The translations under genes and the position numbers were made by a program. Source: Pseudomonadota bacterium (GTDB taxonomy: Bacteria; Pseudomonadota; Alphaproteobacteria; Rhizobiales; Beijerinckiaceae). Taken from it: 64,000 nt of DNA. Below, one piece after another: positions 9,759-44,590 of this stretch. The DNA lies in contig JAEXGT010000018.1 of assembly GCA_023450615.1 (NCBI GenBank), positions 8,808 to 72,807 on the forward strand, given 5' to 3'. Position 1 is the stretch's first letter. Each line of letters opens with the position of its first letter. Under the pieces are notes generated by a model. That model did not search any database and was not told the DNA's origin. It worked only from the letters and a program-made list of their open reading frames with translations.

Positions 9759-10934
9759 ATGGAAACCCTGAACGTCGGCATCATCGGATGCGGCAACATC
9801 TCGGGCATTTACCTTCAGAACATCCCGGCCTATCGGGGACTGACTCTGCGCGCCTGCGCCGATATGAGGCCGGAAATCGCGCAGGCCCAGGCCAGCCGCC
9901 ATGGGATCGAAGCCCTCACCGTCGATCAGCTCCTGGCTCGCGAGGACATCGACCTCGTTGTGAATCTCACGATTCCCAGCGCCCATTTCGGCGTGTCCCT
10001 CGCGGCACTCAGCGCAGGCAAGCACGTCTTCTCGGAAAAGCCTCTCGCGGTGGATTTCGAGCAAGGCCGCAAACTGGTGGATGAAGCCGAAGCACGCGGG
10101 CTGTTGCTGGGCTGCGCGCCGGACACCTTCCTCGGAGCCGGTGGGCGCCTCGCCCGCCAACTCGTGGACGATGGAGCCGTCGGGCGGATCCTTTCGGGGT
10201 CGGCATTCCTCATGTCCCATGGCATGGAGCACTGGCACCCGGACCCGGAGTTCTTCTTCAAGCCGGGCGGCGGCCCCATCCTCGATATGGCGCCCTATTA
10301 TCTCAGCACGCTCGTCAATCTCATCGGCCCCGTGCAGCGCGTGTTCTCCATGGCGAATATCGGATTTCCCGAACGCATCGTGACGGCAGATTCCCCCAAA
10401 AAGGGCCAGCGGATCACGGTGGAGACGCCGACAAGCGTCATGGCCCTTCTGGAATTCGCCTCCGGAGCCCAAGTCACTTTCTGCATGAGCTGGGATGTAT
10501 GGAAGCACGGTCACCCGGCAATTGAGCTCTATGGGACTGAAGGCTCCCTGCGCGTGCCCGATCCGAACTTCTTTGGCGGTCAGGTCGAGACGACTGAACG
10601 CGGTGGGGATTGGCAGTTGAAGGATTCGAGCGAGATGCCCCTCGGCGCTCCCAATTGGCGGTCTCCGAATTGGGCGCCCGATATGCCATCACGCGCCAAT
10701 TACCGCGCGCTCGGCCTTGCCGATCTTGCCAGCGCCGCCCTCAACGGCACGCCTCACCGTTCGACAGGCCGGCTGGCGCTTCATGTCCTTGAAGTCATGC
10801 ACAGGATCCTGGAAGGCGCCGGCACCGGACAGGCGATGCCGATCACGACCCTGCTGGAGCGCCCGGCGCCTCTCTCCGACCAGGATGCCGCTGCGCTTTG
10901 GCAAGGCCCTCCTGAGACCGCAACGGCGGCCTAG
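9759..10934 (+). CDS. Gfo/Idh/MocA family oxidoreductase
   Basis: METLNVGIIGCGNISGIYL Rossmann N-terminus and an HVFSEKP motif. ATG at 9759 lies 5 nt after the upstream stop. The 9510 extension is out of context. Confidence 0.85.
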   Translation: METLNVGIIGCGNISGIYLQNIPAYRGLTLRACADMRPEIAQAQASRHGIEALTVDQLLAREDIDLVVNLTIPSAHFGVSLAALSAGKHVFSEKPLAVDFEQGRKLVDEAEARGLLLGCAPDTFLGAGGRLARQLVDDGAVGRILSGSAFLMSHGMEHWHPDPEFFFKPGGGPILDMAPYYLSTLVNLIGPVQRVFSMANIGFPERIVTADSPKKGQRITVETPTSVMALLEFASGAQVTFCMSWDVWKHGHPAIELYGTEGSLRVPDPNFFGGQVETTERGGDWQLKDSSEMPLGAPNWRSPNWAPDMPSRANYRALGLADLASAALNGTPHRSTGRLALHVLEVMHRILEGAGTGQAMPITTLLERPAPLSDQDAAALWQGPPETATAA

Positions 10935-32974: not shown

Positions 32975-33046
32975 CTGCTTTAAGCTTTTGTTTTGGCGCA
33001 TCTTGTCACGCAAAACCGGTGCCCACTTTTGCGTTCGATGCTCTAG
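32975..33046. repeat. 72-bp intergenic repeat, copy A
   Basis: 69/72 identical to 48314-48385. It fills the gap between the convergent stops at 32970-32972 and 33043-33045. Internal stem ACGCAAAA / TTTTGCGT. Confidence 0.85.
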
Positions 33047-35853
33047 TCGCCTTCGATGATCTCACGGATTCGTACGGCCAGGTCCTCTATGCCGAACGGC
33101 TTCGTGATCATCTCCATGCCCGGATCGAGGAAGCCGGAGGCCATGGCGGCCTGTTCGGCATAACCGGTGATGAAGAGGACCTTGAGATTGGGCCTGATCA
33201 CGCGTGCATAATCTGCAAGCTGCCGGCCATTCAGCCCCGGAAGACCGACATCAGTCACGAGCAGGTCCACCCGCTGCTTCGATTCCAGGATTTTGAGACC
33301 TGATGGGCCATCCACCGCTTCGATGGCTTGATAGCCAAGGTCGGCCAGGACTTCCATGATCAGGGAGCGGACGACGCGCTCGTCCTCCACGACCAGAACT
33401 GTTTCACCAGCCTCCGCCCGATGCATCTCGCCGAGGCCTGTCACGGCGACAGGTTCCGAAGCCTCGCCCTCATGAGCCGGCAGGTAGAGCTTGACGGCTG
33501 TTCCCCTGCCGACCTCGCTGTGAATGCGAACATGCCCCTCCGATTGCTTGGTGAAGCCATACACCATGGAGAGGCCAAGGCCCGTTCCTACGCCGATCGG
33601 CTTGGTCGTGAAGAAGGGGTCGAAGACCTGCGAAAGAACATCGGCAGGCATCCCGGTTCCGGTATCGGAGACGCTGATCGTAACGTAGCGGCCAGGCGCG
33701 ATAGCCTGCTGAGCCGCCGCATAGAGATCGTCCAGGTGAGAAATGCCTGTTTCAACGATGAGCGCGCCGCCATCGGGCATGGCATCTCGCGCATTGATCG
33801 CGAGATTGAGGATGGCGCTTTCCAGCTGATTGGGATCGCACAGGGTCAGCGGCAGTTCTTCAGAAATCGCGAACCCGAGCTCAATGGATTCTGAAATGGT
33901 CCGCCGGAGAAGCTCCTCCATGGACATGACGAGCCGATTGACGTTGACGGGCTTCGGATCGAGAGGCTGGCGCCGCGCAAACGCCAGAAGGCGATGTGTC
34001 AAGGCCGCAGCGCGATTGGCCGAGGACGTGGCAGCCGAAATGTACCGGTCGAGATTATCGAGGCGGCCTTGCGCCATGCGGGTCTTCAGAAGATCGAGCG
34101 AGCCGACGATTCCCGTCAGAAGATTATTGAAGTCGTGCGCAATGCCTCCCGTCAGCTGGCCGACGGCTTCCATCTTTTGGGCCTGCCGCAGCGCCTCTTC
34201 GGTCCGCTTCAGTTCCGTGATGTCGTGTCCTTCCGCCACCAGGAAGATAGGCGTGCCCGTCTCATCCAGAACGGGTTTCATCGAAAAGTCGAAAATGCGG
34301 TTGCCGCCCGGCAGCAGGAGTTCCGACTCGTAGCGCACGAACTCTCCGGCGGCGACGCGCGCGACACTTTCGCGCGCCCGCTGGGCCTCGTCGGGAGAAT
34401 TCACCCACCAGGGAGCATCCCAAATCTTCAACCCCGCAACCTGTCTCTGCGCAGTTCCTGCGGCCTGCAAGGCCGCATTGTTGACGATCACCACGGTGCC
34501 ATCCAGCGCGCTAAGCGCCATCAGCTGGAAAGTGGTGTTGAAGATCGCCCGGAACCGGCGTTCGCTCTCGGCGAGTTCGGCCGTGCGCTCAGCAACACGG
34601 CTTTCGAGCCTTTCGTTGAGCTCCCGCAATCGCTCTTCCGACTGCTTTACCGCCGTAATGTCATAGATGACGCCGATAAATCGCAGGCCCGCTGTTTCGG
34701 TATCACGAACATACTCGCCCCGGCGAGCCAGCCAGCGAAGTTTCTTGTTGTCCGCCCGCTGAATCCGGCATTCGGCGTATGACGCACTTTCAGAAGCTGA
34801 ACCCTGCTCGACGAGAACGGGATCTCCCGGCATGACGAGATTGTTGATCGTGCGGATGGGCAAGACATTGGTCGGGTGAAGCCCAACCAGCCTGCAAAAT
34901 TCCTCCGAGACGCTGACGGTCGCAAAGCCGTCCACATATTCGAACGTTCCGATGCCACCGGCGCTCTGCGCAATCCGCAGCCGCTCCTCGATATGCTTCT
35001 GCTCAGTTACATCGAGGACGACGCCCGTGAAACGGACGGGATGATCCCCATCGCCAAAATGGCTGCGCCCTCGCGCATGGACCCAGCGCACCGAGCCGTC
35101 AGCGGAAAGAAGCCGGTATTCCTTGGAAAAGATTTCCGCTCCGTTGAGGATGCCTGCGACGGCCAAGCGGATTCTCAAGCGGTCTTCGGGATGGATGGCT
35201 TTGAAGAAATCGTCGGCGGGCAGACCTTTCCCGGCGCGGACCGGATCAAGGCCGTGGAGCGCTGCGAACCGCGCATCGGCGGTGAAGCATCCGCGAGGAA
35301 TGTCCCAATCCCAGGATCCGCCCGTTCCGGCAACGGTCAGCGTCTGGCGGAGCCGCTCATTGGTCCGATCGAGCTCCTGCTGGTTCGTCTGCAGAGCGGC
35401 GCGCATCTCCTCGGCCTGATGCGATTGCGTAACATCGACCTGGGTTGAGAGAAGGAAAAGCGGCTCGCCGTTCTCATCGTTGACGGGAGTCACGAAGAGA
35501 TGGTTCCAGAAGCGACTTCCGTCCTTGCGCTGGTTCAGAATTTCAATCGAGACGGCGTTGCCCTCCCGAATTGACTCGTGCAACCGCCGAACGGCTTCCT
35601 GATCGGTTTCCGGCGCCTGGAGGAAATCGCAATTACGCCCGACAGCCTCCTCGACCGAGTATCCCGTCATCCGGCAGAACGCCTCGTTCACGAAGACGAT
35701 CGGGTTATCGGGCAGCCGCGGATTTGTTGCCAGCATCGATAGGCCTGAGCGCTCCAGGGCCGAAAAGATCGGCCCTGCGATGCGGCGCAACTCTTCAAGC
35801 GCGCCCCCAATACTCTTATCAAGCGTATCATATGGGAGCTTTCGGGCCGTCAT
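33043..35853 (-). CDS. Hybrid sensor histidine kinase: LOV-type PAS, 3 PAS/PAC, HisKA, HATPase_c, REC
   Basis: LOV block DNPIVFVNEAFCRMTGYSVEEAVGRNCDFLQ...NQRKDGSRFWN...QVDVT. H-box GGIAHDFNNLLTGI. G-boxes DTGTGM and GLGLSMV. The C-terminal receiver has VLVVEDE...DLLVTDVGLPG...ITKP. Confidence 0.9.
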   Translation of the reverse strand: MTARKLPYDTLDKSIGGALEELRRIAGPIFSALERSGLSMLATNPRLPDNPIVFVNEAFCRMTGYSVEEAVGRNCDFLQAPETDQEAVRRLHESIREGNAVSIEILNQRKDGSRFWNHLFVTPVNDENGEPLFLLSTQVDVTQSHQAEEMRAALQTNQQELDRTNERLRQTLTVAGTGGSWDWDIPRGCFTADARFAALHGLDPVRAGKGLPADDFFKAIHPEDRLRIRLAVAGILNGAEIFSKEYRLLSADGSVRWVHARGRSHFGDGDHPVRFTGVVLDVTEQKHIEERLRIAQSAGGIGTFEYVDGFATVSVSEEFCRLVGLHPTNVLPIRTINNLVMPGDPVLVEQGSASESASYAECRIQRADNKKLRWLARRGEYVRDTETAGLRFIGVIYDITAVKQSEERLRELNERLESRVAERTAELAESERRFRAIFNTTFQLMALSALDGTVVIVNNAALQAAGTAQRQVAGLKIWDAPWWVNSPDEAQRARESVARVAAGEFVRYESELLLPGGNRIFDFSMKPVLDETGTPIFLVAEGHDITELKRTEEALRQAQKMEAVGQLTGGIAHDFNNLLTGIVGSLDLLKTRMAQGRLDNLDRYISAATSSANRAAALTHRLLAFARRQPLDPKPVNVNRLVMSMEELLRRTISESIELGFAISEELPLTLCDPNQLESAILNLAINARDAMPDGGALIVETGISHLDDLYAAAQQAIAPGRYVTISVSDTGTGMPADVLSQVFDPFFTTKPIGVGTGLGLSMVYGFTKQSEGHVRIHSEVGRGTAVKLYLPAHEGEASEPVAVTGLGEMHRAEAGETVLVVEDERVVRSLIMEVLADLGYQAIEAVDGPSGLKILESKQRVDLLVTDVGLPGLNGRQLADYARVIRPNLKVLFITGYAEQAAMASGFLDPGMEMITKPFGIEDLAVRIREIIEGD

Positions 35854-35897: not shown

Positions 35898-36539
35898 CTA
35901 GGCCTCGTCTCCGACAACTCGCTGGATGAAGCCCGCAATGAGTTCCTTCAGGGCCGCAAGCGAGGGCAGATCCATGAGCATGGCGATATAGCCCCGGATA
36001 TTCCGGTTGCGGACGGAGAAGTTGATATACAGGAAAAGGACCAAGCCCTCATCCGGGCGGGGCTGCATGAGCCTGAACAACTGAGCCCCGTCGCCGCGAA
36101 CGACTTCCGGCAGGGAGATGTTGAGAGAACGCTTCAACATGTTCGCCATCGTGGCAAGACAACCGTTCAGTATCACGTTGCCCGTTTCGGCCAGGGCCTC
36201 CTGTTCCATCTCGTCAACCTGATCGGGGGGCACCTCATCCCCAATGATGGCGCGGACGAGGTCCAGGCTTATGACTTGAGGCAAGATCAGAAGAGCTTGA
36301 CCGGAAAATGCACCTTCGAACTGCTGCTGAATGGCGACAAGCTCGTCTGTCTCACGTTCTCCGATCAGTCGAACCGCATCCTCCGGGGCCATGATCTCGA
36401 CGGATGGAACGGAGAGAAGCACTTCCTCCCCGATCATCTTGCGCAGGCTCGAAGCTGCCCGGCTGACGCCGATATTGACGAGTTCCGTCAGAGCGTCGCG
36501 TTCGAGTTCGGAAAGAGCGATTTCTCGGGGCATGGACAT
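35898..36539 (-). CDS. CheC-type CheY-P phosphatase
   Basis: Two copies of the CheC active-site pattern [DS]-x3-E-x2-N-x22-P: DALTELVN+22aa+P and EALAETGN+22aa+P (the second starts with E). The ATG overlaps the REC stop (TGATG). Confidence 0.75.
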   Translation of the reverse strand: MSMPREIALSELERDALTELVNIGVSRAASSLRKMIGEEVLLSVPSVEIMAPEDAVRLIGERETDELVAIQQQFEGAFSGQALLILPQVISLDLVRAIIGDEVPPDQVDEMEQEALAETGNVILNGCLATMANMLKRSLNISLPEVVRGDGAQLFRLMQPRPDEGLVLFLYINFSVRNRNIRGYIAMLMDLPSLAALKELIAGFIQRVVGDEA

Positions 36540-36922
36540 CACATCCCGCCTGTCCGCAGGCGCAGCGCCGCTCCCGAGATGAAACCTCGCAACCCCTCTT
36601 CGGTCAGAGGCTTGCTGACGAAGGTGGCATTGACCTCACGCGCCCGGGCGATGACCTCGTCCTGGATATTGGCCGTGATCACGGCAATCGGCATCGCCGG
36701 ATGGCTTGAGCGTATTTCACCTGCAAGCTCGAGGCCGTCCTTCTCAGGCATGTTGAAGTCGATCATCGCCACGTCGACCTTCCTAGTACCGAGAACGTCG
36801 AGCGCCTCCTGGGCGTTGCCTGCCTCGACTTTTTCCCAATCAGGCTGCAGGGCCGCCAGAGCCTTGCCTGCAACGATGCGTGCCAGCTTGCTGTCGTCGA
36901 CGATCAGAACGGTTATCGCCAC
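36539..36922 (-). CDS. Single-domain response regulator (CheY-like receiver)
   Basis: LIVDDS, phospho-acceptor context VAMIDFNMPEKDG, VITAN and SKP. 127 aa. The GTG start has a GGAG RBS. Confidence 0.85.
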   Translation of the reverse strand: MAITVLIVDDSKLARIVAGKALAALQPDWEKVEAGNAQEALDVLGTRKVDVAMIDFNMPEKDGLELAGEIRSSHPAMPIAVITANIQDEVIARAREVNATFVSKPLTEEGLRGFISGAALRLRTGGM

Positions 36923-37055: not shown

Positions 37056-37292
37056 TTAGCCGGACAGAACCGGGGCAATCCACGCTCGTAAAAATGGGTC
37101 CGCCGCGGCTCCTTTTAGACCTGGTTTGAAGGCCATCAGAATCTGAAGCACGGCGGCATGAAGGTGTTCGGCTTCCGACAGGTCGACGAGCCGGCTCGCA
37201 TCGGCCTGAAGCCATCGAAGCAAGGGCTCCGCATCTTCGACGCGGCACACCCCTTCAAGAACGATGACCTGTCCCTCCAGACGCACGCTCAT
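37056..37292 (-). CDS. Small (78 aa) STAS-like hypothetical protein translationally coupled to cheA
   Basis: ATGA overlap with the cheA stop. The pattern VIVLEGVCRVEDAEPLLRWL...VDLSEAEHLHAAVLQILMA resembles a short anti-sigma-antagonist (STAS) fold without the phosphorylatable Ser. Confidence 0.45.
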   Translation of the reverse strand: MSVRLEGQVIVLEGVCRVEDAEPLLRWLQADASRLVDLSEAEHLHAAVLQILMAFKPGLKGAAADPFLRAWIAPVLSG

Positions 37293-39259
37293 CCGATCAG
37301 CTCCGGAATATCGAGGATCATGAGAACGCGGCCGTCGCCGAGCAGGGTCGTTCCCATGACGCCAGGCATGCCGGCAAGAATGCCTGACATGGGGCGCATC
37401 AGCACATCCATTCTCTCGGCGAATGCATCCACGGCGATCCCAACCGGCCCGTCATCCAGTGCCATCACCACAACCTTCATGCCCGAATTCGGCTCCGTCT
37501 GGCGCGGAATGTCCAAAAGGTCGGAGAGCCTGACCAGAGGAATCGTCCGGTCGCGCAGGACGAAGGCCTCGGCCTCGCGGACCGGAAGGATGCGAGAGGC
37601 GGGCACAAAGGTCGTCTCGATCACTCCATCGAGAGGAATGCCATAGATTTCATGTCCGACCCTGACAGCCATGATCCTTGCCATGACGATGGTCAGGGGC
37701 AGGGTCAGCCGGATCGTCGTGCCGTGGCCCTGCTCGCTTTGAACGGTGGCCTGCCCGCCTAATCTTTCAATAGCGGAGCGTACGGCATCCATACCGACCC
37801 CCCTGCCCGACAGGTCGGTCACCTCCGAAGCCGTCGAGAATCCCGGCGCGAAGATCAGATTGATGATCTCGGAATCGCTCATCCGCTCGATTTCGTCCGC
37901 CGGGGCGACATTCCGCTCGCGGGCGACACGACGGATGACAGCGGGATCGATACCGCGCCCGTCATCCTGAACCTCGACCTGGACCCGGTCGCCCTCGCGA
38001 CGGGCCCGGAGCGCGACCCTGGTCCTTGCTGGCTTCCCGCTTTCCAGACGAACATCCTCCGGCTCGGCCCCATGGCCGATGGCATTGCGCAGGATGTGAA
38101 GCAAAGGTTCGAACAAGCCTTCGACGACGGACTTGTCCGCCTCGACATCTTCGCCCTCCATGGAAAAATCGACCGCCTTTCCCAGCGAACCCGCGATCTC
38201 GCGCACGACGCGGGGGATGCGCCGGAAGATGTCCCGCATGGGCATCATGCGGACATCCATGACGGCCCTGTGCAGCTCCGCCACGATCCGGTCGATGGCG
38301 AACTGGCTCGCGAGAAGTCCCTGCGACAATTCCTTCTGATCCAGCCGGTCCGTGATCTGCCCCGCCAGATGCGCTAAAGCATTCTTCGCAATAACCATCT
38401 CACCGACGAGATCCGCCAGATGGTCGATGCGCGTAGCATCGATGCGGAGCGACCGGGCATGAGTTCCCCCTGCCGCGTCCACTGTAGTGCTTCCGGCTCC
38501 CACTTCGCTGCGGTCCGTCCTGCGATGGGCGACCTCATGGATCGTGACTTGGTCCGGCACGAAACGGAAGACCGCTTTCACTGCATCGAGCCCTGCGCCG
38601 GAAAGCGCCTCGATCCTGAGATTGCATGCGAAGGGATCAATCTCGGAGCTGGGCGGCCAAGGGTCCCGGCTCGAGAAACGGACCGAGACGAGAGCGGGAA
38701 CGGAGCGCAGGAGAGCAACCGGATCGTCGCCCGCAAAGAAGCAATCGGCCCGTGGTGTGTAGCAGATGGTCACGAGGGAGCTTGCCTGCGCCGCCGCATC
38801 CGGGTTCAGAGCCATCAACTCCTCAACCCAGCCAAGGTCGACCAGCGGCGCGGCGGGAGCGGCAGGTGTCAAACCTTGGTCGACCTGTGACCGCAAGCCT
38901 CGCGCGAGACGGTAGCCTTCCTCGGCCGCGCCTTCCGGCAATTGCCCCGTTCGTTCGATATCGCCGATCCACCGCTCCGCTTGTGCGATGCATTCCAGGA
39001 GCGTGTCGATCACTTCGGCATCGGCCCTCGCCTGCCCCTCCTTGAGAGCGCCCAGCAGATCTTCGGCTGCGTGAAGGGCAAGCCCCATGGGCGCGAAGTC
39101 GAAGAGGCCGACGGAGCCTTTGAGCGTATGCACGGCCCGAAAAGCGCTGTCCATCTGCGCCGCGGTGCCAGGATCGCGCTCAAGCGCCAAAAGGTCATCC
39201 GTGGCCTGCTGGATCAACTCGCGGGCTTCGACGACGAAGTGCTGAAGGAGATCATCCAT
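37289..39259 (-). CDS. cheA: Chemotaxis histidine kinase CheA (P1-P5, no fused receiver)
   Basis: Hpt FRAVHTLKGSVG. HATPase N/G boxes HILRNAIGHG, DDGRGID and GRGVGMDAV. C-terminal CheW-like domain. The ATG at 39259 overlaps the cheR stop by 8 nt. Confidence 0.9.
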   Translation of the reverse strand: MDDLLQHFVVEARELIQQATDDLLALERDPGTAAQMDSAFRAVHTLKGSVGLFDFAPMGLALHAAEDLLGALKEGQARADAEVIDTLLECIAQAERWIGDIERTGQLPEGAAEEGYRLARGLRSQVDQGLTPAAPAAPLVDLGWVEELMALNPDAAAQASSLVTICYTPRADCFFAGDDPVALLRSVPALVSVRFSSRDPWPPSSEIDPFACNLRIEALSGAGLDAVKAVFRFVPDQVTIHEVAHRRTDRSEVGAGSTTVDAAGGTHARSLRIDATRIDHLADLVGEMVIAKNALAHLAGQITDRLDQKELSQGLLASQFAIDRIVAELHRAVMDVRMMPMRDIFRRIPRVVREIAGSLGKAVDFSMEGEDVEADKSVVEGLFEPLLHILRNAIGHGAEPEDVRLESGKPARTRVALRARREGDRVQVEVQDDGRGIDPAVIRRVARERNVAPADEIERMSDSEIINLIFAPGFSTASEVTDLSGRGVGMDAVRSAIERLGGQATVQSEQGHGTTIRLTLPLTIVMARIMAVRVGHEIYGIPLDGVIETTFVPASRILPVREAEAFVLRDRTIPLVRLSDLLDIPRQTEPNSGMKVVVMALDDGPVGIAVDAFAERMDVLMRPMSGILAGMPGVMGTTLLGDGRVLMILDIPELIG

Positions 39260-40109
39260 CTCGGTCGTTCCCCGGGCGCTGATAGACGATCGCATCCTCA
39301 AAACGGCGCAAGTCGAAGCGCTTCGAGATCCGCGTCATCGACTCGGTGTGGCCGAGACAGATGTATCCTTCCGGATTCAGGGCCTTGTAAAGGTTGTTCA
39401 CGGTCACGAGACGCGCGGGATCGTCGAAATAGATCAGGACGTTGCGGCAGAAGATGACGTCGAACCGTCCCTGCGCCGCCACGGATGCCGGATCGATGAG
39501 ATTGGCTGCCGTAAACTTCACCGACTCCCGCAGATCCTGGATCAGTCTGCGGCGTCCGTCCCGAAGCGGCTCGAAATAGCGGTCGATCACATCCTGAGGC
39601 AAACGGGAAAGAGCACGTTCTCCATACCTCCCGTCCTGCGCTTCGAGCAGGACGCGCGTATCGATATCCGAGCCGACAATCTCGATGTGATAGGCATCGA
39701 CAAGGGGCCAATTCTCGAGAAGCCAGATGGCGATGGAGTAAGGCTCTTCTCCCGTGGAGCACGGCACCGACCAGATCCGCACGAGATCCCCCGGCTTCCT
39801 GTTCTGCGCGATACTCGGCAGAAGGGAACGGCTGAGGCAGCGCAGCTGATGCTCCTCACGGTAGAAATAGGTTTCATTGACCGTGAAGAGGTTGATCAGG
39901 TGTTCGATTTCGCCCTCGTTGGACGCGATATGCGCGAAATAGGCAGGGAACGTATACGTTCCGGTCGCCGCCATACGGTCGGCGACCCGCCTCTCGATGT
40001 AGTAACGCTTGCTCTCGCCGAAAATCATTCCCGTATGGCGGTAGAGAAATGCGCAAAGCTGGCGGATCTCATCGACAGTCAGCGCATGCTCCTTCCGCGG
40101 CCTGCTCAT
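39252..40109 (-). CDS. cheR: Chemotaxis protein methyltransferase CheR
   Basis: CheR N-domain followed by the SAM-binding core IWSVPCSTGEEPYSIA and VIFCRNVLIYF. ATGA overlap with cheB. Confidence 0.9.
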   Translation of the reverse strand: MSRPRKEHALTVDEIRQLCAFLYRHTGMIFGESKRYYIERRVADRMAATGTYTFPAYFAHIASNEGEIEHLINLFTVNETYFYREEHQLRCLSRSLLPSIAQNRKPGDLVRIWSVPCSTGEEPYSIAIWLLENWPLVDAYHIEIVGSDIDTRVLLEAQDGRYGERALSRLPQDVIDRYFEPLRDGRRRLIQDLRESVKFTAANLIDPASVAAQGRFDVIFCRNVLIYFDDPARLVTVNNLYKALNPEGYICLGHTESMTRISKRFDLRRFEDAIVYQRPGNDRDG

Positions 40110-41209
40110 GGCGACAGCACCATATCCATGATCCGGTCGGCGATTTGCTCAAGAGGCACGACAATCTCGGCCCCACCGCGTCGAACCAACTCACCGGGCA
40201 TGCCCCAAACAACGGCGGTTTCCTCCGCTTCGGCAATGGTCCGCCCGCCCTCGCGCTTCAAACGCGCCATGGTTTCGGCCCCGTCGCTGCCCATCCCGGT
40301 CATCAATACGCCGATGAGACTTTCCGCTGCGAAGTGCTGCATGGCGCTCTCAACCAGGCGGTCGACGCTCGGGTGCCAACGATGCTCAGGCAAAGATGGC
40401 GCGGCCATCACGACGGGACCATCGGGCCGAGTGCTGATGATGACGTCGGCATCGCCCTTGCCGATATAGACATTGCCGGGTTCGAGCGGCATCGGTTGGA
40501 CGGCTTCCATTACCGTGAGAGCGCACAGCTTATCGAGACGGCGCGCCAGAGGACCGGTGAACGAGCCGGGCATGTGCTGGGCCACAACAATCGGCCAGGG
40601 AAAATCCTCAGGCAACCGGGACAGGAGCGCATCCAGGGCAGGCGGTCCGCCCGTCGATGTGCCGATCAGCACGATGCCATGGGCCGGTGCATTTTTGCGC
40701 CGCCGCCGCACCGGGACAGCGGCCACAGGCAGGCGTGGCACGACAACTCTCGCCGGATTTCTTCCCAAGCCGCTGCGCAGGCGCACTCGCTCAGCCAGCC
40801 TCAGGCTGCGGGGCAGACGCGCCCGTGATGCGGCGCGGACCTTCTCCACCAACTGGGGGCCAAGGGTTTCCATTTCGAGCGAAATCGCGCGGTCGGGCTT
40901 TGCGATGAAATCGACAGCCCCAAGCTCCAGCGCTTCCAGTGTGACGCGTGCGCCCGCATCCGTGAGGGATGAAACCATCACCACTGGACATGGGCGCTCC
41001 AGCATGATGCGGTCGAGACAGGTGAGCCCATCCATCTCGGGCATGTTCACATCGAGAGTGATCACGTCCGGCTTGAAGGCGTGCACCTGCTCCAGCGCCT
41101 CCACGCCGTTGCGAGCGAGAGCGATTTCGAAATCGCCCTCGGCGGTGAAGACACTGCCGATCAGACGTCGCATCAATGGAGAGTCGTCTACGACGAGCAG
41201 CCGGATCAC
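40106..41209 (-). CDS. cheB: Protein-glutamate methylesterase CheB (REC plus methylesterase)
   Basis: LLVVDDSPLMRR...ITLDVNMPEMDG receiver, plus an esterase domain with GTSTGGP and the AQHMP...F block. GTGA overlap with the CheW-domain gene. Confidence 0.9.
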   Translation of the reverse strand: MIRLLVVDDSPLMRRLIGSVFTAEGDFEIALARNGVEALEQVHAFKPDVITLDVNMPEMDGLTCLDRIMLERPCPVVMVSSLTDAGARVTLEALELGAVDFIAKPDRAISLEMETLGPQLVEKVRAASRARLPRSLRLAERVRLRSGLGRNPARVVVPRLPVAAVPVRRRRKNAPAHGIVLIGTSTGGPPALDALLSRLPEDFPWPIVVAQHMPGSFTGPLARRLDKLCALTVMEAVQPMPLEPGNVYIGKGDADVIISTRPDGPVVMAAPSLPEHRWHPSVDRLVESAMQHFAAESLIGVLMTGMGSDGAETMARLKREGGRTIAEAEETAVVWGMPGELVRRGGAEIVVPLEQIADRIMDMVLSP

Positions 41210-42639
41210 GGAGCGGAGCGCTCCGGATGATCTTCGTCCATGGCAGCAAGCAGATCCTTCTCGGCGCGATCCAACAACTCGCGCGGATCGAGCAGGAGGA
41301 TCATGCGTCCCTCGACCTCGATATTGGCGATGCGATCGATGACCTGGCTCCCGTCCGCTGCGAGATCGGGGGTCTGGCGAAGCTGCGCTTGAGAAATTTT
41401 GAGAACCTCCGACACGGTGTCGACGACGAAGCCGGCTTGCAGCTCATCAATCCGGACAACCACGATGCGTTCCCGTCGCCTCTCACCCTGAGCGTCGAGC
41501 TTGAATCGCCGCCGCTGATCGATGACCGGAACGACACGGCCGCGCAGGTTCATCACCCCTTCGATGAAGGCAGGAGCCTTGGGCAGCCGGGTCAGCGCAT
41601 CGGGCACGCGCACGACCTCATCGACCGCCCCGATGGGTAACCCGTATTCTTCACCACCCAGCTGGAAGACGATGAACTGCTCCTCGTCACGGTGCGAAGG
41701 CCCGTCAGCTGTACCCATGTCGTGGTTCTTTTCCGTTTGAGAGGAAATCTGCTCGAGCAGGGCCTGATCGCGGAACAGATGGTCCGGCGACAGGATCGAG
41801 ACCAGCCGCTGCCCCCCATCGAGCCGACAGATTCCCTGGATCTGTGCCTCCGCATCTCCCCGGGTGAGGATCGTCGGAACGGGATCGATCATGTCGGGAG
41901 ATATCCGAAGGATTTCCTTCATGCCGTCGGTCGCAAGACCCACCAGCCCTTCACCGATCCGTATCACGACGACCCGGGCTCTCCTGGCATCGCCAGTCGC
42001 GCGAAGGCCAAGCAACCCCCGTAGGGAAACTAGAGGCACGAGCTTTCCGCGCAGGGGAAGCACGCCGAGCATGACAGCATCGGTCTGCGGAACCGCCGTC
42101 ACATGCTCCGGGAGAGCGACAACCTCATGAACGGAAGGCAATGGCAGGGCAAAATCCTGTCCACCCACGGCAAAGCATACCAGGGCGATCTTGTCCGGGT
42201 CCGCGGCCTGCTCATGGTGCACCCGTGGAGCGGCGATTGACCGGCCAGATGCCCGGCGCGTGAAGCTGCCGAAATCCTTGGCGAGCAGCGCATCCAGATC
42301 AATCATCCGCGCCCGCACGTCATCGTTCTCTGACGATGCAAGCGATGCCACCCTATCCACCGCGAGGCCTACAGGGGAACCGCGGTCGATCACGACGACG
42401 CGGGCATTTCCAGAAGGAAGCCCCTCCCGTCCCAGGAGTTTGTGCAGCGACACAACAGGCATCACCGCGCCCCTGAGATTGGCCACGCCAAGCAGGCTGG
42501 AGGGACCAAGCGGCACTCGGGTAACAGCCGGACGGCGGATCACCTCGGCAACATCGGACGCGGGAAGGGCAAAACGTTCGCCCCCCAATTCAACCGTCAG
42601 GAACGATCGCGCGACGGACGCAGGAGCCGCCTGGGCCAT
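41206..42639 (-). CDS. Triple CheW-domain scaffold protein
   Basis: Three CheW-like units (FLTVELGGERFALP..., LVCFAVGGQDFALP..., FIVFQLGGEEYGLP...), each with an NLRG-type motif. The ATG at 42639 lies 5 nt after the MCP stop. The track extension to 42849 overlaps the MCP. Confidence 0.85.
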   Translation of the reverse strand: MAQAAPASVARSFLTVELGGERFALPASDVAEVIRRPAVTRVPLGPSSLLGVANLRGAVMPVVSLHKLLGREGLPSGNARVVVIDRGSPVGLAVDRVASLASSENDDVRARMIDLDALLAKDFGSFTRRASGRSIAAPRVHHEQAADPDKIALVCFAVGGQDFALPLPSVHEVVALPEHVTAVPQTDAVMLGVLPLRGKLVPLVSLRGLLGLRATGDARRARVVVIRIGEGLVGLATDGMKEILRISPDMIDPVPTILTRGDAEAQIQGICRLDGGQRLVSILSPDHLFRDQALLEQISSQTEKNHDMGTADGPSHRDEEQFIVFQLGGEEYGLPIGAVDEVVRVPDALTRLPKAPAFIEGVMNLRGRVVPVIDQRRRFKLDAQGERRRERIVVVRIDELQAGFVVDTVSEVLKISQAQLRQTPDLAADGSQVIDRIANIEVEGRMILLLDPRELLDRAEKDLLAAMDEDHPERSAP

Positions 42640-42643
42640 CACA

Positions 42644-44590
42644 TTACGACTCCACGATCTGGAGTTCATCCGCCAGGGAGGCGATCTCTTCAATCGCGGC
42701 GGCAAGGTCCTCTGATCCTTGCGCCTGCTGACGCGCCGCGCTTGCCGCTTGTGCGGCGGCCGCTCCGGCCTCTTCGGCGACGGCTGCGATCTGTTGGGTG
42801 CCGAGCCGAACCTCGCGCACGGACGTGAGAATGGTGTCCGAACCGGCAAAAATCGCGCTGTTGCCGCGACGGAGCGCCTCGACGTCAGCCTCCACCGCGT
42901 TGAGCCTCTCGGCAGTCAAGGTATTCTTGGCCACCTCGGCTTCCGCAACGACGGCGCTCTGCTCCAAGTCGCGCCGGACGATGATGATCTGCTCGCGGAT
43001 CTGGCGAATGACGTCCTTGATCCGGTCTGCATTCTCGGATGCATCGCGCGCCAGATTGCGGATATCACTGGAGACGATGGCGAAGCCGCGCCCCGCCTCG
43101 CCTACCCGCGCCGCCTCGATGGAGCCGCTCACGGCCAGCATGTTGGTCTGAACCGCCACGAGGGCGATGCTGTCGACGATCTTCTCGATGCGGCGCCCCG
43201 ACTCGTCCAACCCGCTCATCATGTCGATTACGGCACGGGTTTCCTTGAGCCCGCCCTCGACGCCCCTTGCGAGGCGCATGGTTGCGGAGCGGTTTTCCTG
43301 GAACGCGCCGGCAAGGCTTTCGATGCGCTGGACTGCGGTTTCGGCAACCTCCCGCGACGCGCTGGTAGCCCGCTCGATCTGCTCCATGGCCGCAGTGGTC
43401 TGCTGGGTCGCCGCAGCCTGCATCTGCGCTCCCCGGCTGATCTGATCGACCGCCGTCATGATCTCGCCCGCAGCGCCCGAAAGCTCCTGGATGGCCGCCG
43501 AAAGCTCCTCAGCCGCCGAACCGACCTGCTCGGAACTCGCCGAACCCGCCGTGTCGGACTGCAGATTGTCGGCCAGAACCGCCAGGGCATGTGCGGTCTG
43601 CTGGCTCTGGTCCAGCGCGACGCTCTGCTGCTGGACGGCCCGCTGAGCCTCCGCAGCCGCAGCGGCCTGCTCCTCTGCGGCGCTGGCGACCTGCTCGGCC
43701 CCGCGCTGCGCCTCGCGGATAGCTGCTTCCGCCTCGACGGCGGCAACGAGGATTGTCTGGCTGCCCTCCGCGAGGAGGGTAATGTCAGAGCGGATCTTGT
43801 CCAGGGCGGCAACGATGCCGCGCCCGGATTGCGCCTCGCCCGAAGCGGTTTCCGCAGCAGCCCTGATCCTCTCGGCGACGGAGCGCACTTCGCCCGCGAT
43901 CACCTCTGCCAGGGTTTGAATGTCCTGCGCGCTTTTCTCCGAGCTTCCGGCCAGAGCCCGCACCTCGTCGGCCACGACCGCGAACCCGCGACCGTTCTCG
44001 CCGGCCCGCGCGGCTTCGATTGCCGCGTTGAGAGCCAGAAGGTTGGTCTGGTCGGAGATGTCTCCAACCATGCTGGTGATTTCGCCGATGGTGGTGGCCT
44101 GCTGTTCCAAGAGCGAGATGATCTCGACCATGGCTCTCTGACGGGTAGCGTTCGCCTCGACGGATGCCACCGATGTATCGATTTGAGCAGCAGTCTCGAT
44201 CAGGAGGCTCTGGAGGCTCGCGGTCTTCGTGCGCGCCTCTTCCGCATGCTGCCGCGCGCCCGAGAAAGAAGCGCCGAGGCTCACGATGGCGGAAAGCGAT
44301 TGCTGGGATGCGCCCGCAGCCTCCTCGGCTCCGGCGGCGATCTGTTCCATGGAGCGTCGGAGTTCCTCCGCAGCGGCAGACGCCTCCGCCACTCCGCTCG
44401 CCAATTGCTCTGTCGCCGCGCCGATGCGCTCCGCAGCCTGCTGCTTGCGGGCCCTGACCCGCCCGAGGATCCGGCGCTGGGACGCGCCGCCCCGCACAGG
44501 GGAAGGGGATGCATTCGCAGCAGGCGCTTCATCACCGCCCGAGCGAGGGTTGCCCTTGCCCGGGAGTTCGGACGTCTTGACCAATGCCAT
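42644..44590 (-). CDS. Soluble methyl-accepting chemotaxis protein with two tandem signalling (MA) domains
   Basis: No hydrophobic TM segment. Two hairpin-tip motifs lie 300 aa apart: [32 protein letters not shown] (about aa 183-214) and [32 protein letters not shown] (about aa 483-514). Several EE/EQ methylation-like sites are present. Confidence 0.9.

What the first reader, a model, noticed from the sequence alone, without database searches (positions are those of the whole stretch)
35428..35733. N-terminal PAS of the hybrid kinase is a LOV domain with the photoactive Cys retained but NCRFLQ changed to NCDFLQ
Residues about 41-142 read LATNPRLPDNPIVFVNEAFCRMTGYSVEEAVGRNCDFLQAPETDQEAVRRLHESIREGNAVSIEILNQRKDGSRFWNHLFVTPVNDENGEPLFLLSTQVDVT. 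This tracks the bacterial LOV consensus (DNPIVFxNxAF..TGY..EE..G.NCRFLQG..TD...NYRKDGS.FWN...Q.DVT) seen in the Brucella LOV-HK, Caulobacter LovK and YtvA. The adduct-forming Cys is present (TGC, complement of 35629-35631). The Arg that normally follows it and contacts the FMN phosphate is Asp here, and the following G is A (LQA). It may be a functional blue-light sensor with altered flavin binding or photocycle, or a degenerate LOV reused for another cue. In either case it places a putative photoreceptor at the end of the Che-like operon.
Basis: partly seen in the sequence, partly recalled or inferred. Interest (0 to 1): 0.7.

Follow-up and report, generated by a model that had tools for sequence, protein, structure and literature searches.

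The report
LOV light sensor missing both phosphate-clamp arginines
The sensor kinase at the end of a chemotaxis-like operon in this Microvirga bacterium starts with a genuine blue-light (LOV) domain that keeps its light-reactive cysteine but, unlike all its relatives, has lost both arginines that normally grip the flavin's phosphate, so it may still sense light through an altered flavin or may be on the way to losing that ability.

Summary
Residues 41-142 of the 936-aa hybrid kinase (33043-35853, minus strand) form a LOV domain. Its best solved relative is the Brucella LOV-HK (E 3e-31; the AF2 model superposes at 0.7-1.4 A). Cys75 is present and the next residue is Asp (GAT).

New points:
- The second phosphate-contacting Arg (YtvA R79, AsLOV2 R467) is His92, and the ring-contact Phe134 is Leu.
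- Only five residues in the whole protein depart from columns at least 95% conserved among 52 orthologs. Three of them are these flavin-pocket sites.
- All other close Microvirga orthologs in the set read N[C/G]RF[L/M]Q. No other of the 120 homologs has Asp there.
- The sister species M. guangxiensis reads NGSFLQ, having lost both Cys and Arg.
- All six Asn/Gln flavin-contact residues are intact, and LOV dN/dS is 0.11-0.16. Orthologs that are truly decayed have lost those residues.
- "LQA" is normal for this family.
- The order MCP-CheW-CheB-CheR-CheA-CheY-CheX-kinase is conserved. Rhizobiaceae orthologs lack the LOV domain.

Best reading (about 0.5): the domain still binds a flavin and is photoactive, with altered tail binding (weaker FMN hold or a riboflavin preference) and a faster photocycle. 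Main rival (about 0.35): a light-blind PAS domain. Only experiments can decide. Interest is moderate, because this is one lineage's variant of a known family.

The parts
33043..35853 (-). Hybrid sensor kinase gene, 936 aa: LOV - PAS_3 - (PAS-like) - PAS_4 - HisKA - HATPase_c - REC
   Evidence: ORF; Pfam domains; the identical protein P0001 and locus L081.
35746..35832 (-). N-terminal A'alpha cap helix (aa 8-36) ahead of the LOV core
   Evidence: AF2 model helix H8-36. Aligns with the N-cap of the Brucella LOV-HK construct. dN/dS is 0.11-0.20.
35428..35733 (-). LOV core (aa 41-142)
   Evidence: PAS_9 E 5e-40. LOV-HK 6ph4 E 3e-31. Foldseek 3t50/6ph2 rmsd 0.7-1.4 A, TM 0.90-0.95.
35629..35631 (-). 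Cys75 codon (TGC), the adduct-forming cysteine
   Evidence: Aligns with AsLOV2 C450 and YtvA C62.
35626..35628 (-). Asp76 codon (GAT), at the site of the first FMN-phosphate arginine (YtvA R63, AsLOV2 R451)
   Evidence: Orthologs have CGN or AGA (Arg); M. guangxiensis has AGC (Ser). Arg to Asp needs at least 2 nucleotide changes.
35578..35580 (-). His92 codon (CAC), at the site of the second FMN-phosphate arginine (YtvA R79, AsLOV2 R467, miniSOG R57)
   Evidence: Arg in 51 of 52 orthologs.
35452..35454 (-). Leu134 codon (CTT), at a Phe that contacts the isoalloxazine ring (DsLOV F131, AsLOV2 F509). The change, with the same codon, is shared with M. guangxiensis.
   Evidence: the contact list is from PMC4335406.
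35314..35430 (-). Jalpha-like helical linker (aa 142-180) from the LOV domain to the next PAS domain
   Evidence: AF2 helix H142-159; sequence.
33967..34161 (-). HisKA domain, with phospho-acceptor His573 (34135-34137) in AHDFNNLL
33475..33837 (-). HATPase_c catalytic domain
33067..33399 (-). C-terminal receiver domain, with Asp868 (33250-33252) in LLVTDVGLPG
35898..36542 (-). CheX/CheC-type phosphatase gene. It ends 44 bp before the start of the kinase gene.
36539..36922 (-). CheY-like single-domain response regulator
37056..37292 (-). Conserved 78-aa ORF between CheA and CheY, with a faint STAS_2 similarity
37289..39259 (-). CheA (Hpt - dimerisation - HATPase - CheW), with no receiver domain
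39252..41209 (-). CheR (39252-40109) and CheB (40106-41209)
41206..44590 (-). Triple-CheW-domain protein (41206-42639) and MCP (42644-44590), the head of the Che-like operon

Best explanation
The domain is a true LOV domain. It belongs to the orthologue, in this unnamed Microvirga lineage, of a LOV-PAS-PAS-HK-REC hybrid kinase that closes a conserved Che-like operon. In the small clade formed by this strain and M. guangxiensis, the part of the pocket that holds the flavin tail has been remodelled. Phe134 became Leu, and the Arg after the Cys was lost (Asp here, Ser in the sister). This strain then also changed the second phosphate Arg to His, while the sister lost the Cys. Everything that holds and reads the isoalloxazine ring is intact here: N50, N74, Q79, N107, N117, Q138 and Cys75. 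I infer that the domain still binds a flavin through ring and ribityl contacts and still forms the Cys-C4a adduct in blue light. Without the two-arginine phosphate clamp, and with a carboxylate next to the phosphate site, FMN should be held less well relative to riboflavin, or flavin occupancy should be lower. The adduct should also decay faster, which would make this a less sensitive light input. The signal would pass along the Jalpha-like helix and the PAS domains to the kinase and its receiver, adding a light input to the output of the Che-like pathway. Shown here: domain identity, residue states, orthology, synteny and purifying selection. Inferred: flavin binding, cofactor preference, photocycle kinetics and coupling to the Che proteins.
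For: LOV identity by sequence and fold. Nine of the ten residues that Yee et al. list as conserved in LOV domains are present (PMC4682037). The LOV domain is under purifying selection (dN/dS 0.11-0.16 against 0.10 for a canonical pair), and dS of about 0.9-1.1 means this has held over a long time. Internal control: orthologues that have really decayed (P0052, P0054, P0056, P0059, P0062) lost 5-6 of the 6 Asn/Gln contacts, whereas the window keeps 6 of 6. The changes are targeted: 3 of only 5 private changes at columns at least 95% conserved fall on flavin contacts. Losing the phosphate interaction need not abolish binding. YtvA-LOV binds riboflavin (KD 351 nM) at least as well as FMN (715 nM), and the authors state that the phosphate gives no energetic contribution (PMC3836802). 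LOV domains carrying riboflavin keep a working photocycle (PMC5314338). Crystal structures exist for miniSOG R57Q, mutated at the position of window H92, and for riboflavin-reconstituted miniSOG (7qf2, 7qf3, 7qf4). R63K in YtvA and R58K in Chlamydomonas LOV1 keep the photocycle but shorten the adduct lifetime (2100 to 312 s; 200 to about 70 s) (PMC4161478). Twelve homologues with Cys naturally lack the second Arg. NCDFLQ recurs in three unrelated metagenomic LOV proteins.
Against: No natural or engineered LOV domain with an acidic residue at this site has been characterised, as far as I could find (0 papers contain NCDFLQ). The tested mutants are R->K and R->Q, which are far milder. The first Arg also bonds to the conserved Asp of the DNP loop (YtvA D36, window D49) and stabilises the 3-10 helix that carries the Cys. 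Asp76 therefore puts two carboxylates together next to the Cys. The first Arg is normally one of the last residues to go: it is kept even in Cys-less and partly decayed orthologues. The sister species has lost the Cys, which suggests that selection for adduct photochemistry is relaxed in this clade. Cells hold much less free riboflavin than FMN or FAD (general knowledge).
Confidence: 0.5

Rival explanations
1. Light-blind, flavin-free PAS domain. The clade has stopped using this domain as a photoreceptor, and R76D plus R92H abolish stable flavin binding. The domain is kept under selection only as the dimerising N-terminal module that sets kinase activity, or it now binds another small ligand.
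For: Both residues described as contacting the phosphate 'in all LOV proteins' are gone (PMC4335406). One is replaced by the opposite charge. The sister species has NGSFLQ, without Cys or Arg. The N-terminal sensor of this kinase family is evolutionarily labile: Cys was lost several times, the domain is fully decayed in some Microvirga, and it is absent in Rhizobiaceae orthologues within the same operon. Asp at this site was absent from 126 diverse LOV motifs.
Against: All ring and ribityl contacts and the Cys are retained over a divergence of dS about 1, whereas the truly decayed orthologues lost them. dN/dS of the LOV domain is no higher than in canonical pairs. The phosphate is dispensable for binding in YtvA-LOV.
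Confidence: 0.35
2. Flavin-based redox sensor, or a sensor working through the semiquinone. The domain binds flavin but signals mainly through flavin reduction (N5 protonation read by Gln138) rather than the Cys adduct, as in natural Cys-less LOV-like proteins. This clade would be shifting from light sensing to redox sensing.
For: Cys-less LOV proteins still signal through the neutral semiquinone, and natural examples exist (PMC4682037). The sister species and several other orthologues are Cys-less with an otherwise intact pocket (NGRFMQ, NPRFLQ). Gln138 is retained.
Against: This strain keeps its Cys, and nothing in the sequence points to redox sensing in particular. A changed phosphate site has no known link to redox tuning.
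Confidence: 0.1
3. Sequencing or assembly artefact in a low-coverage contig (coverage 6.5x).
For: The matching ENA contig is labelled cov_6.5. The variant is seen only in this one protein cluster.
Against: Three separate codons are involved, and R76D needs two adjacent base changes. The identical protein is recorded on 3-4 contigs. The frame and flanking codons are intact. The sister species independently shows a non-Arg at codon 76 and the same CTT codon at 134.
Confidence: 0.03

Closest known systems
Brucella abortus LOV-HK (PDB 3t50, 6ph2-6ph4, 6pps)
   Same: It has an N-terminal A'alpha helix, a LOV domain, a PAS domain and a histidine kinase. It is the best sequence hit (E 3e-31, about 44-48% identity) and the best structural hit (rmsd 0.7-1.4 A). 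It also has a non-Arg (Lys) at the second phosphate site (alignment).
   Different: Brucella keeps NCRFLQ. It has no C-terminal receiver domain and fewer PAS domains (PDB constructs and titles). The window protein has Asp and His at the two phosphate sites and lies in a Che-like operon.
Orthologous Microvirga LOV hybrid kinases (e.g. M. vignae P0002, M. solisilvae P0004)
   Same: They are 80-86% identical, have the same domain order and sit in the same operon position.
   Different: All have NCRFLQ, Arg92 and Phe134. The window differs at exactly these flavin-pocket sites.
Microvirga guangxiensis orthologue (L001)
   Same: It is the sister lineage (21 shared derived nucleotide sites against 7 and 9 for the alternative groupings). 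It shares F134L with the same codon, and it has also lost Arg76.
   Different: It reads NGSFLQ, with Cys lost as well, but it keeps Arg92.
YtvA R63K, Chlamydomonas LOV1 R58K, miniSOG R57Q and riboflavin-loaded LOV domains
   Same: These are experimental changes of the same two arginines, or removal of the phosphate. Flavin binding and the photocycle persist, and adduct decay is faster.
   Different: These are conservative single changes made in the laboratory. None has an acidic residue, and none removes both arginines.
Rhodospirillum centenum Che3 cascade with the hybrid kinase CheS3
   Same: It is a Che-like cluster (MCP, CheW, CheB, CheR, CheA, CheY) that includes a PAS-containing hybrid kinase and controls something other than swimming (PMC3868531).
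   Different: CheS3 is phosphorylated on a receiver domain called REC1 and CheA3 is itself a hybrid, and no LOV domain is mentioned in its abstract. Here CheA has no receiver domain, the kinase's receiver is C-terminal, and a CheX/CheC phosphatase is present. No homology or shared output was tested.

Membership tests
LOV domain (flavin-binding PAS photosensor) | PAS alpha/beta fold closest to known LOV structures | tested here: met
   The top 60 PDB sequence hits are all LOV proteins, best E 3e-31. The AF2 model (pLDDT 87) matches Brucella LOV-HK LOV at rmsd 0.7-1.4 A and TM 0.90-0.95.
LOV domain (flavin-binding PAS photosensor) | Adduct-forming Cys in the GxNCRFLQ motif (YtvA C62) | tested here: met
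   Cys75, TGC at 35629-35631.
LOV domain (flavin-binding PAS photosensor) | Arg directly after the Cys (YtvA R63), which contacts the FMN phosphate and the DNP-loop Asp | tested here: not met
   Asp76 (GAT). It is R in 50 of 52 orthologues and R or K in 123 of 126 diverse LOV motifs.
LOV domain (flavin-binding PAS photosensor) | Remaining motif residues G, N, F, L, Q (YtvA G59, N61, F64, L65, Q66) | tested here: met
   G72, N74, F77, L78 and Q79. The residue list is from PMC4682037.
LOV domain (flavin-binding PAS photosensor) | Asn/Asn/Gln that hydrogen-bond the isoalloxazine ring (YtvA N94, N104, Q123), plus the DNP-loop Asn | tested here: met
   N107, N117, Q138 and N50 are present.
LOV domain (flavin-binding PAS photosensor) | Second phosphate-contacting Arg on the Falpha helix (YtvA R79) | tested here: not met
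   His92 (CAC). It is R in 51 of 52 orthologues. This feature is less strict: 12 Cys-containing homologues lack it, and Brucella has Lys.
LOV domain (flavin-binding PAS photosensor) | Binds a flavin (450-nm absorption) and forms a reversible 390-nm adduct in blue light | not testable with these tools
   This needs protein expression and spectroscopy.
Hybrid sensor histidine kinase | HisKA with phospho-acceptor His, HATPase_c, and a receiver domain with phospho-acceptor Asp | tested here: met
   Pfam HisKA, HATPase_c and Response_reg. His573 lies in AHDFNNLL and Asp868 in LLVTDVGLPG.
Che-like pathway with an attached hybrid kinase (Che3/CheS3-type, alternative cellular function) | One co-oriented cluster with MCP, CheW, CheB, CheR, CheA and CheY plus a PAS hybrid kinase | tested here: met
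   Gene calls and Pfam hits. The order is conserved in Microvirga, Enterovirga, Rhizobium, Neorhizobium and Shinella.
Che-like pathway with an attached hybrid kinase (Che3/CheS3-type, alternative cellular function) | Phosphotransfer between CheA and the hybrid kinase's receiver, and a non-motility output | not testable with these tools
   This is known only for R. centenum (PMC3868531). The domain layout here is different.

The most novel reading that the evidence does not exclude
This is a natural, working LOV photoreceptor that has given up the universal two-arginine phosphate clamp. Asp76, perhaps paired with His92 or Arg89/Arg90, occupies or neutralises the phosphate site. The domain would then prefer riboflavin (or a non-phosphorylated flavin or lumichrome-type chromophore) over FMN. 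That would make it the first natural LOV with a switched cofactor preference, feeding light into a Che-like pathway.
Probability: 0.2. Interest if true: 0.6.

Novelty: new variant of a known kind. Interest (0 to 1): 0.4.

Why it matters
LOV domains are central tools in photobiology and optogenetics, and the two phosphate arginines are described as present in every LOV protein. A natural domain lacking both, with Cys and the ring pocket intact, would test directly how much the flavin tail matters for cofactor choice, occupancy and photocycle speed. It could also provide a ready-made riboflavin-preferring scaffold. If the domain proves to be dead, the family still has value. It captures stepwise loss of a photoreceptor within one genus: canonical, Arg-less, Cys-less, fully decayed and absent forms, all in the same operon slot. 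The conserved placement of a LOV kinase at the end of a Che-like operon also suggests that light feeds into a chemotaxis-like pathway in Microvirga. The finding rests on one lineage and on sequence alone, so its weight is moderate.

Tried and rejected
1. A single-sequence AF2 run gave an unusable model (pLDDT 45). It was replaced by a run on a 47-sequence alignment (pLDDT 87).
2. A literature search for 'NCDFLQ' found nothing. The miniSOG R57Q/riboflavin paper is not in the library, so only the PDB entry titles could be used.
3. The Glantz et al. LOV census was found only as a citation, so no published frequency for this site was available. I made my own small census instead.
Only 3 of its 121 matches were LOV domains. 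It shows that the variant recurs but gives no frequency and found no closer relatives of this strain.
5. The representative-protein search was dominated by giant multi-PAS proteins. It was useful only as a source of diverse LOV motifs.
The genus is inferred from homologues.
7. Pseudogene-like decay of the LOV domain was rejected (dN/dS 0.11-0.16, intact frame).
8. A faster overall rate in the window lineage was rejected: 7 private amino-acid changes against 11 and 12 in its two closest relatives.
Full report
**1. What is there**

The minus-strand ORF at 33043-35853 encodes a 936-aa protein. Pfam finds PAS_9 (aa 48-143, E 5e-40), PAS_3, PAS_4, HisKA, HATPase_c and Response_reg, which makes it a multi-PAS hybrid histidine kinase. 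The quoted peptide, the coordinates and the Cys codon are all correct. Residues 41-142 map to 35428-35733, Cys75 is TGC at 35629-35631, and Asp76 is GAT at 35626-35628.

The N-terminal 160 aa hit only LOV proteins among solved structures. The best hit is the Brucella abortus LOV-HK (E 3e-31), followed by Avena LOV2, aureochrome, phototropin-2, miniSOG and EL222. The alignments are ungapped from about aa 25 to 145. An AF2 model built on 47 homologues (pLDDT 87, pTM 0.77) has an A'alpha helix, the LOV core and a C-terminal helix. It superposes on the Brucella LOV domain at 0.7-1.4 A with TM 0.90-0.95.

The kinase looks intact, with His573 in AHDFNNLL and Asp868 in the receiver.

**2. The pocket, residue by residue**

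The ungapped alignments give fixed offsets to the reference proteins: +375 to AsLOV2, -13 to YtvA and -3 to DsLOV.

- Nine of the ten residues that Yee et al. use as the LOV signature are present (YtvA G59, N61, C62, R63, F64, L65, Q66, N94, N104, Q123; PMC4682037). Here they are G72, N74, C75, F77, L78, Q79, N107, N117 and Q138, and N50 of the DNP loop is also present.
- The exception is R63, which is Asp76 here.
- Phe134, listed as a hydrophobic contact of the isoalloxazine ring in DsLOV (F131), is Leu.
- The literature describes the two arginines as contacting the phosphate 'in all LOV proteins' (PMC4335406). In YtvA, R63 also bonds the loop Asp36 and is thought to stabilise the 3-10 helix that carries the Cys (PMC3836802; PMC4161478).

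**3. How unusual it is**

The protein belongs to a well-populated orthologous group in Microvirga, 64-86% identical over the full length.

- None of the other 119 listed homologues has Asp after the Cys position. In the 51 closest, that position is always Arg (NCRFLQ, NCRFMQ or NGRFMQ).
- Across the whole 936-aa protein, only five residues depart from columns at least 95% conserved among 52 orthologues: R76D, R92H, F134L, R543H and L844I. Three of the five are flavin contacts. This enrichment was noticed after the fact, but a rough binomial estimate gives well below 1%.
- In 149 diverse representative proteins from a full HMMER scan, 126 LOV-signature motifs had R 118, K 5, S 3 and D 0 at this site.
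Two of them keep an Arg at the Falpha position that aligns with window His92, and the third has an Arg one residue further on. The Asp is therefore rare but recurrent. Among the sequences I examined, the combination of Cys present and both arginines absent is unique to this window (1 of 121).
- No paper in the library contains 'NCDFLQ'.

**4. Evolutionary context**

The closest species representative is M. guangxiensis (87% identity). It is the sister lineage: 21 shared derived nucleotide sites support this grouping, against 7 and 9 for the alternatives.

- Its motif reads GRNGSFLQ, so both the Cys and the Arg are lost. It keeps Arg92 and shares F134L through the same CTT codon.
- Codon 76 is GAT here, AGC in the sister and CGN in the other orthologues. 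Arg to Asp needs at least two steps.
- The simplest history is that F134L and the release of Arg76 happened in the common ancestor. R92H then followed here, and C75G followed in the sister.
- The LOV domain is not decaying. NG86 dN/dS for aa 41-145 is 0.112 (window vs guangxiensis) and 0.156 (window vs vignae), against 0.098 for a canonical pair. Whole-gene values are 0.08-0.10 and dS is about 0.8-1.1.
- The window lineage is not accelerated overall.

The family provides an internal control.

| State (121 homologues compared) | Count |
|---|---|
| Fully canonical: Cys, both Arg, 6 of 6 Asn/Gln contacts | 77 |
| Cys and the first Arg kept, second Arg absent | 12 |
| Cys lost (G, P, T or W) with most of the pocket kept | several |
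| Fully decayed (e.g. P0052, P0054, P0056, P0059, P0062): 5-6 of the 6 Asn/Gln contacts lost | about 11 |
| Window state: Cys kept, both Arg absent, 6 of 6 contacts | 1 |

The window protein and its sister both keep all six contacts. The first Arg usually survives even in Cys-less and half-decayed members. Losing it while the rest of the pocket is intact is therefore not the usual order of decay.

**5. Operon context**

Upstream and co-oriented lie an MCP, a triple-CheW-domain protein, CheB, CheR, CheA (without a receiver domain), a conserved 78-aa ORF, CheY and a CheX/CheC phosphatase. The kinase gene starts 44 bp after CheX ends. The order is conserved in Microvirga, Enterovirga, Rhizobium, Neorhizobium, Shinella and others.

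In the Rhizobiaceae the terminal hybrid kinase is about 790-800 aa and has no LOV domain. The LOV is thus an exchangeable N-terminal input on a conserved Che-associated kinase. The nearest studied analogue is the R. centenum Che3 cascade, whose hybrid kinase CheS3 exchanges phosphate with CheA3 (PMC3868531). The domain layouts differ, and I tested no functional equivalence.

**6. Mechanism**

*Shown:* a LOV fold, an intact ring pocket and Cys, no phosphate clamp, purifying selection, an intact kinase and receiver, and membership of a Che-like operon.

*Inferred:* flavin binding probably survives.

- Apo-YtvA-LOV binds riboflavin (351 nM) and FAD (224 nM) at least as tightly as FMN (715 nM), and the authors state that the phosphate makes no energetic contribution.
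- LOV domains reconstituted with riboflavin still photocycle.
- miniSOG R57Q and riboflavin-loaded miniSOG have been crystallised.
- R63K in YtvA and R58K in Chlamydomonas LOV1 keep the photocycle with a 3- to 7-fold shorter adduct lifetime.
- Removing extra phosphate arginines in PpSB1-LOV speeds dark recovery 280-fold.

I therefore expect a flavin-binding, Cys-adduct-forming LOV. A carboxylate at the phosphate site should disfavour FMN and FAD relative to riboflavin, or lower the cofactor occupancy. Its lit state should be short-lived, which means a weaker light input to the kinase.

The main rival is that Asp76 wrecks cofactor binding, because it sits beside Asp49 and next to the Cys-bearing helix. 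In that case the domain survives only as a structural or signalling module. The Cys loss in the sister species and the repeated losses across the family support this rival. A redox-sensing role through flavin reduction is a minor alternative. A sequencing artefact is unlikely: three codons are affected, one with two adjacent base changes, the identical protein is on several contigs, and the sister lineage shows related changes.

**7. Verdict**

The domain is a member of the LOV lineage by fold, orthology and 9 of 10 signature residues, but it fails two tested features, the phosphate arginines. The defining property, a flavin photocycle, could not be tested here. It is a new natural variant of a known kind, of moderate interest, and a simple expression and spectroscopy experiment would settle the question.

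Noticed in passing
L001:10001-12808 (Microvirga guangxiensis NZ_FMVJ01000002.1): The sister-species orthologue reads GRNGSFLQ, with both the photoactive Cys and the following Arg lost. It keeps all Asn/Gln flavin contacts and Arg92, so it is a natural Cys-less LOV-like kinase.
   Followed up: partly
Homologues P0046, P0048, P0063 (NGRFMQ); P0057, P0069, P0116 (NPRF/L/M..); P0053, P0120 (NWRLL); P0052, P0054, P0056, P0059, P0062 (fully decayed): Within this one orthologous kinase family the photoactive Cys has been replaced several times (G, P, T, W). In some members the whole flavin pocket has decayed. Together they form a graded series of photoreceptor loss in the same operon slot.
   Followed up: partly
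L021-L038 (Rhizobium, Neorhizobium, Shinella and related loci), kinase ORFs starting near position 9900-10000: The same Che-like operon ends in a shorter hybrid kinase of about 790-800 aa that has no LOV domain. The LOV is therefore a lineage-specific N-terminal addition or loss.
   Followed up: partly
window 37056-37292 (-): A 78-aa ORF between CheA and CheY is conserved at 37-77% identity across Microvirga and some Rhizobiaceae loci. It has only a faint STAS_2 similarity (E 0.037) and no assigned function.
   Followed up: partly
window 42644-44590 (-): The operon's MCP (648 aa) has its MCPsignal domain near the N-terminus (aa 154-302). The roughly 340 aa that follow have no Pfam match, which is an unusual layout for a chemoreceptor.
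   Followed up: no
window 41206-42639 (-): A single protein carries three CheW domains in a row (Pfam CheW, 3 stretches).
   Followed up: no
L164 (1767 bases), L098 (7760 bases), L157 (13371 bases); metagenome contigs: Three unrelated LOV proteins also carry NCDFLQ: a LOV-SpoIIE phosphatase, a LOV-PAS-GGDEF-EAL protein and a haloarchaeal REC-LOV-GAF-BAT-HTH_10 regulator. Two have an Arg at the Falpha position that aligns with window His92, and the third (L157) has an Arg one residue further on.
   Followed up: partly
P0129, P0131, P0250 and P0122, P0123, P0132, P0154 (representative proteins): Among diverse LOV motifs, NCSFLQ (3 cases) and NCKFLQ (5 cases) occur as natural variants of the Arg after the Cys.
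   Followed up: no
window 35581-35589 (-), residues 89-91 (R-R-L): This strain has Arg at both 89 and 90, just before His92. Arg89 occurs in 6 of 52 orthologues and Arg90 in 8 of 52, where Gln is usual. These could be compensating basic residues near the phosphate site.
   Followed up: no
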